Positions 7,967 to 17,460 of a stretch of 64,000 nt of DNA are shown in pieces. The position numbers and the translations under genes were made by a program. The DNA comes from a virus. Where the stretch lies: the IMG/VR virus record IMGVR_UViG_3300045049_000339, positions 43,717-107,716 of that record; one strand, given 5' to 3'. Every line of letters starts with the position of its first letter. Position 1 is the first letter of the stretch. The notes beneath the pieces were generated by a model. The model had not been told where the DNA came from. It made no database searches and worked only from the letters and a program-made list of their open reading frames with translations.

Positions 7967-8428
7967 GTGCGGAAAATGAACGATCTGATCAACGCCTACT
8001 ACTTCGACTTCCAGGGCACTCTCGTTGACGTGCGCGGAATCCGTCACCTCTTGGAGACCACCCCCAAGCGGTACGACTCGTTCCACTACGCCACGGCAAG
8101 CTGCCCGCCGATCTCGTGGGTGGCGTCCGAGGCCCGCAGGGCGCATGAAGAGGGCTTCGCGGTGCTCCTGGGCACCGGTATGACCGAGCGCTTCCGGCCC
8201 CTGGTGAACTTCTGGCTGGCCAGCCACGAGGTGCATGTGGACGACCTCCAGATGCGCCCCGACGATGACTTCTGCAAGGACTTCATCCTGAAGAACCGCA
8301 TGCTGAGGCGGTGGCAGAACACTCACCGCTTCGTTCACGCGTACGACGACAACCCGGCCGTGATCGAGCACGTCTGGGCAGCAGCGAATATCCCGCACAC
8401 GACCGTGCCGGGATGGGGAGAAGGATAG
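7967..8428 (+). CDS. HAD-family phosphatase resembling the phage PNKP 3'-phosphatase domain
   Basis: YFDFQGTLVDV (motif I variant), LGTG, LQMRPDDD, K, AYDDNP motifs. Confidence 0.75.
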   Translation: MRKMNDLINAYYFDFQGTLVDVRGIRHLLETTPKRYDSFHYATASCPPISWVASEARRAHEEGFAVLLGTGMTERFRPLVNFWLASHEVHVDDLQMRPDDDFCKDFILKNRMLRRWQNTHRFVHAYDDNPAVIEHVWAAANIPHTTVPGWGEG

Positions 8429-9867: not shown

Positions 9868-10620
9868 ATGAAGCTCCACCAGCTCATTGCGAAGCAGGGC
9901 AAGGTCGCCGCACGCGTGACCAACGCCGCCAGCGTCATCCACAAGGCGTCGCAGAAGCCCGCTCTGTTCACGGGCGTCAGCATCACCTACGAGCCGCTGG
10001 CCACCAACGAGAACGACGTCTCCGCGCAGAAGCCGCCGGAGGGCAACTCCGTCCAGCTCTACGCGACCAAGGAGCTGGGCAAGCTCCGCGAGCTGCTCAC
10101 CGAGTTGTACGACGTCAACGCGACGCGCGACTGGTCGAACATGGTCGCCCGTGGCACCGTCAAGGTCGGTGACAAGGTCATCCTCTCGGACGTGCCGGTC
10201 CCGTTCCTGCTGTTCCTCAAGCTGGAGCTGAACCGCCTCCGCACCGAGTTCTCCGCCATCCCGGTCCTGGACCCCTCCAAGGACTGGAAGGTGGACACGG
10301 AGAACGGCGGCTACAAGACCGAGACCACCTGGCAGCACAGCACCCGGCGCGTCAAGAAGGTGCTGGAGCGCTCCCCGGCCACGGACAAGCACCAGGCCGT
10401 GACGGAGGTCTACGAGGAGGAAGTGCCGGTCGCGAGGAAGGAGACCACCAACTTCTCCGGCGCCCTGAGCCGCGTGGACCGCGATGCCCTGATCCGCCAG
10501 GTCGACCTGCTCTTCGACGCCGTCACCGAGGCGGTCGAGGAGGCCAACACGGTCGAGGTCGTGGACATGTCCGTCGGCAAGCCCATCTTCGACTTCCTTC
10601 TGGCCCCGCTGACCCGCTAG
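9868..10620 (+). CDS. Hypothetical protein (helical with long beta-hairpin), linked to a downstream structured RNA
   Basis: 250 aa; very strong codon bias; RBS GAGG; function not recognisable. Confidence 0.9.
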   Translation: MKLHQLIAKQGKVAARVTNAASVIHKASQKPALFTGVSITYEPLATNENDVSAQKPPEGNSVQLYATKELGKLRELLTELYDVNATRDWSNMVARGTVKVGDKVILSDVPVPFLLFLKLELNRLRTEFSAIPVLDPSKDWKVDTENGGYKTETTWQHSTRRVKKVLERSPATDKHQAVTEVYEEEVPVARKETTNFSGALSRVDRDALIRQVDLLFDAVTEAVEEANTVEVVDMSVGKPIFDFLLAPLTR

Positions 10621-10842: not shown

Positions 10843-10989
10843 GTCTCGGCAAGGCGTTGATCGAAGTGCGCTGTCCCATCAGGAGACGTCGGTTCGAATC
10901 CGACTCAGGGGACTACGATCCCTGGTGGTGTAGTGGAAGCATTGCCTGGTTTCTCAAATCAAGGCAGCGCCCACCGTGCAACGTCAGAC
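10843..10989 (+). ncRNA. Rod-shaped RNA capped by a circularly permuted tRNA-like domain
   Basis: T arm 10888-10904, loop-closed acceptor 10905-10925, D arm 10928-10942; nested helices ATCAGG/CCTGGT, GCGCTGTC/GGCAGCGC, GGCGTTG/CAACGTC, GTCT/AGAC. Confidence 0.8.
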
Positions 10990-14954: not shown

Positions 14955-15116
14955 TGGGTGTCGGAGGAACCGGGGTAAGGAACACGGTTACTTCATTTGA
15001 CTGGATATCAAAAGGTTGTGGGTTCGAGTCCCACCGGCTCCACTTGTGGGGCTGTAGCTCAATCGGTAGAGAAAACGTGCCCGAGTTCACTTTGATATCG
15101 GTTCCCTCGACACCCA
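14955..15116 (+). ncRNA. YrlA-like Y RNA unit 1 with permuted tRNA domain (anticodon-like loop CT-GGA-TA)
   Basis: Outer stem TGGGTGTCGG..GGAACCG/CGGTTCC..TCGACACCCA; GGGTA, CGGTTACTTC and GATAT motifs; arm order anticodon, T, closed acceptor, D. Confidence 0.85.
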
Positions 15117-15123
15117 CAGACTT

Positions 15124-15279
15124 CCTGTCAGGGGTACAGGCAACGGCTACTTCGCTTCGAAATGCGGGTATCTGTGCAAACAGAGTGCGGGTTCGAATCC
15201 CGTCCGGCTCTTCGCTGAGTCGGTAGACGAATTGGCAAAGTCACCTACGTATCCGATGCCGACTTAGACATCTGACAGG
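15124..15279 (+). ncRNA. YrlA-like Y RNA unit 2 with permuted class II tRNA domain (CGA loop, long variable arm)
   Basis: CCTGTCAG/CTGACAGG outer stem; TCTGT-GCAA-ACAGA variable arm; GCGGG-TTCGAAT-CCCGT; CCGGCTC/GAGTCGG; GAC-GAATTGGCAAA-GTC. Confidence 0.85.
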
Positions 15280-15291
15280 GCTAACTTCATA

Positions 15292-15433
15292 TCTGTCCGG
15301 GGTACAGGCTGCGGTTACTTCACCTGTTAAGTGAGAGGTCGCAGGTTCGAATCCTGTCGTGGGGTGATAAGCCCCATGTAGCTCAGTTTGGGAGAGCGCT
15401 AACGTTCCCGCTGCCGCTTCGATATCGGACAGA
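15292..15433 (+). ncRNA. YrlA-like Y RNA unit 3 with permuted tRNA-Asn-like domain (CT-GTT-AA)
   Basis: TCTGTCCG/CGGACAGA outer stem; TTCAC-CTGTTAA-GTGAG; AGGTC; GCAGG-TTCGAAT-CCTGT; CGTGGGG/CCCCATG; GCTC-AGTTTGGGA-GAGC. Confidence 0.88.
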
Positions 15434-15448
15434 ACACACAAACTTCAT

Positions 15449-15589
15449 AGCTGCCTGGGGTAAAGACAACGGTTACTTCCATGCGGAGGAGGTAGCGCAG
15501 GTTCGAATCCTGCCGGGGGCCTACGGGCTCCTGTCGTCTAGCGGCCCAGGACGCCTACGTTTCCGTTATCGCTTTGATATCAGGCAGCT
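15449..15589 (+). ncRNA. YrlA-like Y RNA unit 4 with permuted tRNA-Glu-like body
   Basis: AGCTGCCTG/CAGGCAGCT outer stem; acceptor CGGGGGC-cTACGg-GCTCCTG; D arm TCGTCTAGCGGCCCAGGAC typical of tRNA-Glu. Confidence 0.85.
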
Positions 15590-15590
15590 T

Positions 15591-15684
15591 GCAGAACCCA
15601 TCACCGGGGTACTGCTCACGGTTACTTCACCCTTCAAAGATGAAAAAACACCGTGAGCGCTCTGAAATCGGTGGTGGGTTCTGC
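15591..15684 (+). ncRNA. Short Y RNA unit 5 lacking the tRNA domain
   Basis: 16-bp outer stem GCAGAACCCATCACCG/CGGTGGTGGGTTCTGC; same GGGTA, CGGTTACTTC and GAAAT frame; GCTCACGG/CCGTGAGC. Confidence 0.8.
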
Positions 15685-15727: not shown

Positions 15728-17410
15728 ATGGCCAAGTTTAACCAGAAGACCCGTACCTGGGAGAACCAGGGAGGTTCGGCCTTTCCCGCCGCAGGAACGA
15801 AGCGGCAGACCACCACGACCACGAACCACACCGGCCGTGCCGTGTGGAACCTGGACGACAAGACCAACCTGTTCTTCCGCGCCACGTCCGCCTTCGCCGG
15901 TCAGGACACGTACTACGAGAAAGGCGCCAAGCGCGACGCCGAGGCCATCGCCTTGGTCCGAAAGCTCGCTATCGGCGACTGGGACTGGACGGCGAAGTTC
16001 CTCGTCTGGCTGCGCGCCGAGGGCAACATGCGCACCGCGCCGGTCATGCTGGCTGTCGAGGCAGTTCGTGCACGCCTGGAGAAGAAGCTGCACCCGGCTG
16101 CCGGTGAGATGTCTCACCGTGCGCTCATCGCGGCTGTTCTCCAGCGCGCGGATGAGCCGGGCGAGATGCTCGCCTACTACGAGAACGTCGTCGGCCGCAC
16201 CATGCCGAAGGCGATCAAGCGTGGTATCGGTGACGCGGCCAAGCGCATGTACAACGAGCGCAACTTCCTGCGGTACGACAGTTCGTCCAAGGCCATCCGT
16301 TTCGGCGGCGTCGCCGAGATGGCTCAGATGCCGAAGACGCACGGCTGGCAGTCCGACCTGATCACCTACGCCATTGGTGAGCAGCACCACCGTGAGCAGG
16401 ACATCCCTGACACGTTGGCGGCACTTCGTGCACGCAATGAGCTGAACAAGATGGACGCCAGCGACCGTCACGTTTTCGCGAAGAGCGCACTGGGCGGCCA
16501 CATCATCAACCGCACCAAGCTGGACCTGGCCATGGCCGGGCAGTGGGAGTGGTTCATGAGTTGGCTCGGTGATGCGAAGGGTGCCAAGGCCATCACGACG
16601 AAGGAGAAGTGGACGTTCGCCGCCCAGCGCATGGGCATCATGGCGGTCGTCCGCAACCTCCGGAACTTCGACGAGGCCGGTCTCAAGACGGGCGACAGCA
16701 TCGTCACCGAGATCAGTGGTCGGCTCACGAACGAGGAGCAGATCGCGAAGTCCCGCATGTTCCCGTTCCGGTTCTTCACGGCGCACTTGCAGCTCAAGTC
16801 CGTCACGTGGGCGGCCGGTCTGGAGGTGGCGCTTCAGCACTCGCTCCAGAACCTTCCGGAGCTGCCGGGCCGGACGCTGATCCTCGTCGACACCTCGGGG
16901 TCGATGCAGCAGAAGCTCTCGGCCAAGTCCGAGATGTCCTACGCCCAGGCCGCCGCACTGTTCGGCTGTGCCCTGAAGATCAAGAACCCGGACGGGGTCA
17001 ACCTGTGGGGGTTCGCCGACGGGCAGTTCGAGGCGCAGGCCACCACGGGTCACAGCGTTCTGCGCTGTGCCGAGGAGTTCTGCCGCCAGAACGGCCTGGT
17101 CGGTCACGGAACGCAGATGGAGGCGGCCGTCCGTGCCACGTACGCGGGGCACGACCGAGTCATCATCATCTCCGACATGCAGGCGTTCCCGACCGGCGGT
17201 TACAGCCGGTACGGGTACAGCTACATGACCGGTGACGTCGCTGGGGCTGTTCCGGCGCACATCCCGGTATACGGTTTCAACCTGGCCAGCGGCTCCACCA
17301 CACCGCTGGGCAAGGGCAACCGGCACAGCCTTGGTGGCCTCTCGGATGTGACGTTCAAGCTGATCCCTCAGCTTGAGAAGGTCGGCCGGGGTTCGTGGCC
17401 CTGGGAGTAA
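15728..17410 (+). CDS. rsr: TROVE-domain Ro60/Rsr RNA-binding protein with C-terminal vWA domain
   Basis: WLRAEGNMRTAP, LQRADEPGEMLAYY, PKAIKRG, MAVVRNLRNF, SRMFPFRF, ILVDTSGSM (MIDAS), IIISDMQ; AAGGAGG RBS. Confidence 0.95.
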   Translation: MAKFNQKTRTWENQGGSAFPAAGTKRQTTTTTNHTGRAVWNLDDKTNLFFRATSAFAGQDTYYEKGAKRDAEAIALVRKLAIGDWDWTAKFLVWLRAEGNMRTAPVMLAVEAVRARLEKKLHPAAGEMSHRALIAAVLQRADEPGEMLAYYENVVGRTMPKAIKRGIGDAAKRMYNERNFLRYDSSSKAIRFGGVAEMAQMPKTHGWQSDLITYAIGEQHHREQDIPDTLAALRARNELNKMDASDRHVFAKSALGGHIINRTKLDLAMAGQWEWFMSWLGDAKGAKAITTKEKWTFAAQRMGIMAVVRNLRNFDEAGLKTGDSIVTEISGRLTNEEQIAKSRMFPFRFFTAHLQLKSVTWAAGLEVALQHSLQNLPELPGRTLILVDTSGSMQQKLSAKSEMSYAQAAALFGCALKIKNPDGVNLWGFADGQFEAQATTGHSVLRCAEEFCRQNGLVGHGTQMEAAVRATYAGHDRVIIISDMQAFPTGGYSRYGYSYMTGDVAGAVPAHIPVYGFNLASGSTTPLGKGNRHSLGGLSDVTFKLIPQLEKVGRGSWPWE

Positions 17411-17424
17411 TCCCAGAAACACGA

Positions 17425-17460
17425 AAAGAGCCCCCGCCTCGAAAGAGGCGGGGGCTCTTT
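17425..17460. terminator. Bidirectional terminator between convergent arms
   Basis: AAAGAGCCCCCGCCTC-GAAA-GAGGCGGGGGCTCTTT. Confidence 0.9.

What the first reader, a model, noticed from the sequence alone, without database searches (positions are those of the whole stretch)
14992..15560. Each Y RNA cargo is a near-complete permuted tRNA from a different parent, anticodon-like arm included
Seen: arm order anticodon, variable, T, capped acceptor, D. Unit 1 has loop CT-GGA-TA. Unit 2 has a CGA loop with long variable arm and Ser/Leu-type D arm. Unit 3 has a canonical CT-GTT-AA (Asn). Unit 4 has a tRNA-Glu-type body, loop AT-GCG-GA, and its acceptor is capped by a cUACGg tetraloop. None of these triplets duplicates the 9 normal tRNAs. 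Inference: repeated independent capture of tRNAs into the frame, producing non-chargeable mimics that could decoy different anticodon nucleases, synthetases or modification enzymes, or be opened at the cap to give split tRNAs.
Basis: partly seen in the sequence, partly recalled or inferred. Interest (0 to 1): 0.8.

Follow-up and report, generated by a model that had tools for sequence, protein, structure and literature searches.

The report
Phage Y RNAs with tRNA-shaped modules
Five tandem Y RNAs of the known YrlA type sit in front of a phage Ro60 gene; four carry a rearranged tRNA look-alike that also has an anticodon-like hairpin, but that hairpin belongs mostly to the shared scaffold, not to four separately captured tRNAs.

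Summary
At 14955-15684, five tandem units share one Ro60-binding frame and lie directly upstream of a TROVE/Ro60 gene (15728-17410). Units 1-4 each contain, in order, a 5-bp hairpin, a variable region, a T arm, a loop-capped acceptor stem of at least 7 bp, and a D arm. The hairpin loop is 7 nt in units 1, 3 and 4 and 8 nt in unit 2. This is the published YrlA class of bacterial and phage Y RNAs (Chen 2014), so the permuted tRNA-like core is already known. The new point is that the hairpin published as the "V" stem-loop has the geometry and loop signature of an anticodon arm. In 43 loops from Ro60-linked units, U33 is 93%, R37 91% and A38 93%, with tRNA-like 36-37 coupling and a covarying stem. 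The body types also differ: unit 4 is clearly tRNA-Glu-derived and unit 2 is class II with a Leu-like D loop. "Each arm from a different parent" is only partly supported. The outer three base pairs of the hairpin are constant, cargo-less units also have the hairpin, the loops differ from those of the closest relative, and Glu-type cargos never carry a Glu anticodon. The function as a Ro60-tethered tRNA mimic, adaptor or decoy is inferred. The scan had noted this same stretch in overlapping windows of the same genome.

The parts
14955..15116 (+). Y RNA unit 1: 18-bp terminal stem, GGGGTA box, 8-bp upper stem, TTAC, cargo, ACGT box
   Evidence: stem read directly (17 of 18 pairs)
14996..15073 (+). 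Unit 1 cargo: hairpin 14996-15012 (loop CUGGAUA), V 15013-17, T arm 15018-34, acceptor 3' strand 15035-41, cap 15042-47, acceptor 5' strand 15048-54, D arm 15057-72
   Evidence: generic class I body, best real tRNA 0.84, ortholog in L005 0.87
15123..15280 (+). Y RNA unit 2
   Evidence: the MFE fold gives the whole permuted cloverleaf inside the frame
15151..15243 (+). Unit 2 cargo: hairpin 15151-68 (8-nt loop), long variable arm 15169-85, T arm 15186-203, capped acceptor 15204-23, 3-bp D stem with Leu-like loop 15226-42
15292..15433 (+). Y RNA unit 3
   Evidence: best Rfam YrlA hit in the window (35.2 bits, E 8e-6)
15319..15398 (+). Unit 3 cargo: hairpin 15319-35 (loop CUGUUAA), V 15336-40, T arm 15341-57, capped acceptor 15358-78, D arm 15381-97
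   Evidence: 77% identical over 92 nt to the Y RNA next to Ro60 in Xanthomonas phages
15449..15589 (+). Y RNA unit 4
15476..15553 (+). Unit 4 cargo: hairpin 15476-92 (loop AUGCGGA), 4-nt V 15493-96, T arm 15497-513, acceptor 15514-33 closed by c(UACG)g, Glu-type D arm 15536-52
15591..15684 (+). Y RNA unit 5, YrlB-like: frame plus one imperfect hairpin (15626-15644, loop CUUCAAA), no T, acceptor or D arm
15728..17410 (+). Ro60/TROVE protein gene, 560 aa
   Evidence: Pfam TROVE E 6e-11; PHROG 850 E 8e-43; 35-39% identity to annotated Ro-like proteins of Streptomyces and Gordonia phages
17425..17460 (.). 16-bp G+C-rich hairpin with T runs on both strands, the likely end of the Y RNA-Ro60 transcription unit

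Best explanation
This is an operon of five YrlA/YrlB-type Y RNAs followed by the phage's Ro60 gene. Each RNA has a Ro60-binding frame: a terminal stem, a GGGGTA box in the place of the published CGAA motif, an 8-bp covarying upper stem, and TTAC (the published YUAY). Directly after TTAC comes a hairpin shaped like an anticodon arm. In units 1-4 this is followed by a variable region, a T arm, a loop-closed acceptor stem and a D arm, so the module can fold as a complete L-shaped tRNA mimic with the frame leaving between positions 26 and 27. Shown: the anatomy, covariation of all four helices, the tRNA-like loop signature, the Ro60 linkage, and the tRNA-Glu origin of the unit 4 body. Inferred: the frame and hairpin are an old shared scaffold whose loop drifts within anticodon-loop rules, while the V/T/acceptor/D part has been replaced or gene-converted from tRNA genes of different isotypes. 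Inferred mechanism: Ro60 binds the frame, and the tRNA-shaped module engages host proteins that recognise tRNA. RNase P is expected to cut at the cap because all four acceptor stems have at least 7 bp, as in M. smegmatis YrlA. The modules thereby tether Ro60 (with an exonuclease such as PNPase) to tRNA-handling proteins, or compete with tRNAs for them, including nucleases or modification enzymes directed at the anticodon loop.
For: Frame and arms. Covariation: (hairpin helix 90% paired in 29 units, with 8 and 12 double changes at the two loop-proximal pairs; slid controls 35-60% paired). Loop signature and 36-37 coupling match real tRNAs (UAA 20, GGA 11 of 43). Rfam YrlA hits with E 8e-6 to 1e-3. 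Ro60. In 39 of 55 viral loci retrieved by the unit pattern a Ro60 gene is present; all 45 units there are on its strand, 41 are upstream, and the median distance is 439 nt. Same unit type in Streptomyces chromosomes. Unit 4 as tRNA-Glu. A relative (L007 unit b) matches tRNA-Gln including its exact loop and V loop. The Levitt pair covaries among the four cargos (A15-U48 in units 1 and 2, G15-C48 in units 3 and 4; read). [quoted passage not shown] A polynucleotide kinase/phosphatase-like gene lies in the same tRNA-rich module.
Against: No expression, processing or binding data exist for this phage. All Rfam YrlA scores are below the gathering score (35 against 69 bits). The published CGAA box is replaced by GTAA/GTAC here. 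Sequence alone cannot say whether the hairpin stacks under the D stem, in the anticodon position, or projects like a class II variable arm while the frame helix takes the anticodon-stem position, as in the Salmonella structure. Unit 2 has an 8-nt loop and unit 1 has U at position 37, so two of the four loops are not canonical. The function is entirely inferred.
Confidence: 0.72

Rival explanations
1. One reading: each cargo, anticodon arm included, is an independently captured whole tRNA, and the four triplets were chosen to complement the phage tRNA set and to decoy isotype-specific enzymes.
For: Unit 4 is Glu-like on both sides of the cap and is closer to a Streptomyces tRNA-Glu (0.84) than to any other cargo (0.78). 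L007 unit b carries the exact tRNA-Gln loop. The cargos resemble real tRNAs more than each other. The frame ends do not covary with the cargo acceptor, so the frame and the cargo evolve separately.
Against: The outer hairpin pairs are constant across units and taxa. Cargo-less units keep the hairpin. None of six Glu-type cargos has a Glu anticodon. The loops differ between the window and its closest relative, L005. There is no avoidance of same-contig tRNA anticodons. Body and triplet isotypes agree in 3 of 43 units, with 2 expected by chance, although that classifier is weak.
Confidence: 0.2
2. The hairpin is only the variable-arm equivalent of the published YrlA model. The frame helix is the anticodon-stem equivalent, and the loop has no anticodon-like role.
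For: Published model and Salmonella crystal structure (PMC4201824; 10.1101/312249). Some relatives (a GiJojo unit, an L020 unit) have a closing stem next to V and D and no such hairpin. The TTAC runs straight into the hairpin, which would allow stacking on the frame helix.
Against: The hairpin has a 5-bp stem and a 7-nt loop and is followed by a 4-5-nt class I variable loop. Class II variable arms instead have short loops and sit 1-2 nt before the T stem. The loop shows U33, R37, A38 and tRNA-like 36-37 coupling. Unit 2 has this hairpin and also a separate long variable arm. Five to six unpaired nucleotides lie between the D stem and the frame helix.
Confidence: 0.25
3. The tRNA-like modules are mainly processing signals: RNase P and 3' trimming cut the polycistronic transcript to release the Y RNAs and the Ro60 mRNA.
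For: Acceptor stems of at least 7 bp. M. smegmatis YrlA and YrlB are processed from one precursor and cut by RNase P (PMC4201824). A conserved spacer motif lies between units.
Against: RNase P would cut inside each unit at the cap, not between units. This does not explain the conserved hairpin loop signature or the D/T tertiary-pair conservation. It is compatible with the main reading.
Confidence: 0.12
4. These are decayed tandem (dimeric) tRNA genes with no function of their own.
For: Unit 1 scores as a tRNA in unpermuted register (31.2 bits). Its T arm, cap and D arm stretch matches a tRNA-Trp/tRNA-Phe junction of a Streptomyces phage at 87%. The VanLee unit repeats its acceptor strands in the frame. 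Streptomyces has Glu-Glu and Asn-Asn tandems. A dimeric-tRNA origin model is published (10.1101/312249).
Against: All helices show compensatory changes. The Ro60 linkage is strict. The frame is conserved across phyla. Across 70 units the frame ends are no more similar to their own acceptor than to others (4.41 against 4.36, and 4.79 against 4.64).
Confidence: 0.03

Closest known systems
YrlA Y RNAs (Rfam RF02553; S. Typhimurium YrlA, PDB 6CU1; M. smegmatis YrlA)
   Same: They are encoded next to Ro60 on its strand. They share the Ro60-binding stem, YUAY, a T arm, a loop-closed acceptor stem, a D arm with U8/A14/G18G19 and a covarying Levitt pair. Unit size matches M. smegmatis YrlA (about 147 nt; 82 + 65 after RNase P cleavage), and the acceptor is 7 bp.
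   Different: Salmonella YrlA has no anticodon loop. Here a 5-bp/7-nt anticodon-like hairpin follows YUAY (published only as a 'V' stem-loop). The CGAA box is replaced by GTAA/GTAC. Four cargo-bearing units with different tRNA body types stand in tandem. Rfam scores are below the gathering score.
YrlB / cargo-less Y RNAs
   Same: Unit 5 has the frame without a T, acceptor or D arm, and lies between the YrlA-type units and Ro60, as in M. smegmatis.
   Different: It keeps the TTAC-linked hairpin.
D. radiodurans Yrn1
   Same: Chen 2014 modelled a possible anticodon arm with a 5-bp stem.
   Different: That loop has 6 nt, the arm order differs, and the D arm is poor.
Circularly permuted tRNA genes (red alga Cyanidioschyzon; from my own knowledge)
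   Same: The 3' part of the tRNA is encoded before the 5' part.
   Different: Those are processed through a circular intermediate into ordinary chargeable tRNAs. Here the acceptor is capped, the break lies at 26/27 and is occupied by a protein-binding frame, and no such processing signals are seen.
tmRNA and viral 3' tRNA-like structures
   Same: They are tRNA mimics built around a T/D elbow.
   Different: Those have a free CCA end and are aminoacylated. The Rfam permuted-tmRNA hit here is 24 bits against a cut-off of 47.

Membership tests
YrlA-type Y RNA | Encoded within 4 kb of a Ro60/TROVE gene, on the same strand | tested here: met
   Units end 44 nt before the Ro60 start. In relatives, 45 of 45 units are on the Ro60 strand.
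YrlA-type Y RNA | 5'/3' terminal stem with the GNCGAAN0-1G box | tested here: inconclusive
   Terminal stems of 10-18 bp are present. The box reads GGGGTA(A/C) here, while relatives have GGTGCGAAG-like boxes at the same place.
YrlA-type Y RNA | Conserved YUAY before the variable region | tested here: met
   TTAC or CTAC is present in all five units.
YrlA-type Y RNA | T arm, loop-closed acceptor-like stem and D arm in that order, with tRNA tertiary-pair nucleotides | tested here: met
   The Levitt pair covaries among the four cargos.
YrlA-type Y RNA | Score at or above the Rfam RF02553 gathering score (69 bits) | tested here: not met
   35.2, 28.1, 20.4 and 16.7 bits. Actinobacterial and phage relatives also score only 34-47 bits, so the model appears too narrow for this branch.
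YrlA-type Y RNA | Bound by Ro60; carries pseudouridine 55 and dihydrouridine; cut by RNase P | not testable with these tools
   Needs pull-down and modification mapping.
tRNA (RF00005) | Contiguous cloverleaf with free 5' and 3' acceptor ends | tested here: not met
   The order is permuted and the acceptor is capped. The 31.2-bit hit at 14972-15042 uses frame sequence as a poor acceptor and D arm with mismatched pairs.
tRNA (RF00005) | Anticodon arm: 5-bp stem, 7-nt loop, U33, R37 | tested here: met
   Fully met in units 3 and 4. Unit 1 has U37 and unit 2 has an 8-nt loop. Family-wide signature.
Permuted tRNA genes that mature into functional tRNAs | Processing signals that rejoin the halves and free the acceptor end | tested here: not met
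   No such motifs were seen. The junction is occupied by the conserved Ro60 frame.

The most novel reading that the evidence does not exclude
The hairpin is a working anticodon-arm mimic. After RNase P opens the cap and CCA is added, each unit becomes a Ro60-tethered two-piece tRNA. Its loop is kept within the rules for t6A37-type (U36-A37) or m1G37-type (G36-G37) loops, with CUGUUAA recurring across phyla. The loop titrates or senses host nucleases or modification enzymes directed at the anticodon loop, which would make the array a phage counter-defence against tRNA-targeting immunity.
Probability: 0.15. Interest if true: 0.8.

Novelty: new variant of a known kind. Interest (0 to 1): 0.55.

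Why it matters
YrlA RNAs are described as tRNA mimics that lack an anticodon loop, and their effector is unknown. A large phage and actinobacterial branch of the family carries a hairpin that obeys anticodon-loop rules, and the bodies come in several tRNA flavours within one array. This widens the candidate partners to enzymes that read the anticodon loop. It also makes the published competitive-inhibitor idea directly testable with cultivable relatives. On the practical side, these units produce false tRNA calls in phage annotation.

Tried and rejected
1. Nearest-neighbour isotype assignment of cargo bodies against 55 Streptomyces tRNAs. The positive control on real phage tRNAs was right in only 28% of cases (18% in high-GC loci), so the 3 of 43 concordance has little weight.
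2. ARAGORN on de-permuted constructs as proof of the anticodon arm. It is too permissive: 62 of 71 real constructs against 44 of 71 shuffled ones were called.
3. The model that each unit is a fresh tRNA dimer. It predicts that the frame ends resemble the unit's own acceptor strands. No signal was found across 70 units; VanLee is an exception.
4. Avoidance of the phage's own anticodons. It is true in the window but equals chance across relatives.
5. A pseudoknot between the CUGUUAA loop and the 3' linker. It is possible in unit 3 but not conserved in relatives (read).
6. A conserved closing stem between TTAC and the ACGT box. Only 2 bp (AC/GU) are constant.
7. RNAalifold on a MAFFT alignment of whole units missed the hairpin because of misalignment. 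A gap-free sub-alignment was used instead.
8. The supplements of Chen 2014 and the 2020 Annual Review were not held.
9. tRNAscan-SE isotype models and 3D RNA modelling were not available.

Full report
**What is there**

The window is part of a 107.7-kb IMG/VR virus record with 63% G+C. A 560-aa TROVE/Ro60 protein is encoded at 15728-17410. Support is Pfam TROVE at E 6e-11, PHROG 850 at E 8e-43, and 35-39% identity to annotated Ro-like proteins of Streptomyces, Gordonia and Arthrobacter phages.

Directly upstream, at 14955-15684, are five tandem units with one common frame:
- a terminal stem of 10-18 bp;
- a GGGGTA box;
- an 8-bp upper stem that covaries among the five copies around a constant CGG/CCG;
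- TTAC on the 5' side and an ACGT box on the 3' side.

A strong hairpin with T runs follows the Ro60 stop codon.

**Check of the observation**

In units 1-4 the sequence between TTAC and ACGT reads hairpin, variable region, T arm, acceptor 3' strand, cap loop, acceptor 5' strand, two linker bases, D arm.

- The unit 4 acceptor is closed by c(UACG)g.
- ARAGORN calls all four de-permuted cargos as tRNAs. This is weak evidence, because it still of 71 related constructs when the hairpin region is shuffled.
- An explicit test is stronger. In 71 related units, a perfect 5-bp stem with a 7-nt loop lying 3-6 nt before the T arm is present in 45%, against 3.9% of shuffles. It occurs almost only at spacings of 4 or 5 nt, the length of a class I variable loop.
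- Three of the four window units pass this test.
- The genome has eight true tRNAs. The ninth call (SeC, 14966-15043) is unit 1 read in the unpermuted register.

**Relatives**

The Ro60 protein led to four IMG/VR loci, several GenBank phages and nine Streptomyces or Embleya chromosomes. All have the same kind of units upstream of Ro60.

A pattern scan for TTACTTC followed by a T loop returned more than 120 stretches in viral contigs. Of 55 loci with a parsed unit, 39 hold a Ro60 gene in the fetched stretch. All 45 units in those loci lie on its strand, 41 are upstream, and the median distance is 439 nt.

RNAalifold on 28 units recovers the T arm, the capped acceptor and the D arm, with compensatory changes at 13 of 17 pairs.

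On a gap-free alignment of all 29 units with the standard spacing, chosen without regard to pairing:
- the hairpin helix is 90% paired;
- its three outer pairs (U-G, U-A, C-G) are nearly constant;
- its two loop-proximal pairs show 8 and 12 double changes;
- slid controls give 35-60% pairing.

**Known family**

This is the YrlA class of Y RNAs described by Chen et al. 2014 (PMC4201824). That class was described in more than 250 bacteria and phages. It has a tRNA-like domain made of T, "AS" and D arms, a conserved YUAY, and in many members a fourth "V" stem-loop upstream of T.

- M. smegmatis YrlA (about 147 nt, with a 7-bp acceptor) is cut by RNase P at the cap in vivo, and its 5' half receives CCA.
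- The Salmonella crystal structure paper states that YrlA lacks the anticodon loop, and it cites a dimeric-tRNA origin model (10.1101/312249).
- Rfam YrlA matches the window units at E 8e-6 to 1.8, but with 17-35 bits against a gathering score of 69. Actinobacterial and phage relatives reach only 34-47 bits.

So the permuted tRNA-like core is not new.

**What is new about the hairpin**

The hairpin that the literature calls V behaves like an anticodon arm.
- It has a 5-bp stem and a 7-nt loop, followed by a 4-5-nt variable loop.
- In 43 loops the composition is C32 72%, U33 93%, purine 37 91% and A38 93%.
- Positions 36-37 are coupled as in real tRNAs: UAA 20 times, GGA 11 times, and no cross combinations.
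- Unit 2 has this hairpin and also a separate long variable arm, so the hairpin cannot be the variable arm there.
- CUGUUAA, the tRNA-Asn loop, recurs in 10 of 43 units on seven different stems and with unrelated acceptor stems. The sources are Xanthomonas phages, actinophages, a Streptomyces chromosome and an AT-rich contig.

**Different parents?**

- The four cargos are 58-69% identical to each other and 73-85% identical to their best real tRNA.
- Unit 4 is clearly tRNA-Glu-derived. The 8-9 linker with the D arm, and the stem 3' strand with the 4-nt V loop and the start of the T stem, are motifs found only in the two tRNA-Glu species among 91 reference tRNAs. Its acceptor differs from the Glu acceptor by two transitions that create G-U pairs. 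It is closer to Streptomyces tRNA-Glu (0.84) than to any other cargo (0.78).
- Unit 2 is class II with a Leu-like D loop.
- Units 1 and 3 have generic class I bodies that no isotype claims.
- A relative, L007 unit b, matches tRNA-Gln in its D arm and V loop and has the exact loop UUCUGGU.

Body replacement from tRNA genes is therefore real.

**Evidence against capture of whole arms**

- The outer hairpin pairs are the same whatever the body.
- Cargo-less units, including unit 5 and many YrlB-like units in relatives, keep a TTAC-linked hairpin, often with a CUG-initial 7-nt loop.
- Six Glu-type cargos from different contigs carry six loops, none of them a Glu anticodon.
- The closest relative (Ro60 61% identical) has a different loop in every unit. 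The unit 1 ortholog keeps the same stem but has loop AUGAUAA.
- Same-contig tRNA anticodons are not avoided: 4 of 12 are duplicated, with 4.4 expected.
- The frame ends do not track the cargo's acceptor, which argues against each unit being a fresh tRNA dimer.

The most economical reading is an old scaffold made of the frame and an anticodon-like hairpin. Its loop drifts within anticodon-loop rules, and its V/T/acceptor/D part is replaceable.

**Mechanism**

Shown here are the anatomy, the covariation and the Ro60 linkage. The rest is inferred from published work:
- Ro60 binds the frame.
- Acceptor stems of at least 7 bp predict RNase P cleavage at the caps.
- Hughes et al. proposed that the YrlA tRNA-like domain competitively inhibits an anticodon nuclease (PMC7790460).
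- A Thermus phage Ro60 with its Y-like RNAs binds host PNPase in vitro (PMC12135203).

The array lies in an 11-kb module with eight tRNA genes and a polynucleotide kinase/phosphatase-like gene, which fits a role in tRNA damage or repair conflicts. Sequence cannot decide whether the hairpin sits in the anticodon position in three dimensions or projects like a class II variable arm.

**Verdict**

- The locus is a new variant of a known kind.
- Interest is moderate.

Noticed in passing
window 14966-15043: ARAGORN calls a tRNA-SeC(tca), and the Rfam tRNA model scores 31.2 bits (cut-off 29). This is unit 1 read in unpermuted register, so it is a false tRNA.
   Followed up: yes
L011:1269-1343 (Streptomyces phage GiJojo gene 29) and L015:1096-1167 (Gordonia phage VanLee gene 125): GenBank tRNA-Arg(cct) and tRNA-Arg(tct) annotations coincide with the 5' part of Y RNA units just upstream of Ro60. 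They are likely mis-annotations of the same kind.
   Followed up: partly
window 10880-10945: Another T arm, capped acceptor (cap ACUACGA) and Gln-like D arm in permuted order. It lies outside any Y frame, downstream of a DUF7873 gene (9868-10620) and just before tRNA-Gln. No Rfam family matches it.
   Followed up: partly
window 7967-8428: A 153-aa protein matches polynucleotide kinase/phosphatase families (PHROG 415, E 1e-23; Pfam HAD_PNKP just below its cut-off) inside the tRNA cluster.
   Followed up: partly
window 15281-15291 and 15434-15448; L005, L006: Spacers between units share an ACAACTTCATA-like motif, also present in relatives. It may be a processing site.
   Followed up: no
L015:1090-1240 (VanLee): The frame's 5' and 3' ends repeat the unit's own acceptor strands (6 of 7 and 7 of 7), as a tRNA-dimer origin would predict. 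This is not seen in general.
   Followed up: partly
L014:3579-3742 (Streptomyces phage BRock): A manA RNA motif hit (49.7 bits, cut-off 55.2) lies between two tRNA-Lys genes downstream of Ro60.
   Followed up: no
G001 loci L071, L027: The Streptomyces chromosome has tandem Glu-Gln-Glu-Glu-Gln and Asn-Asn tRNA arrays. These are the same isotypes that recur as Y RNA cargo types.
   Followed up: no
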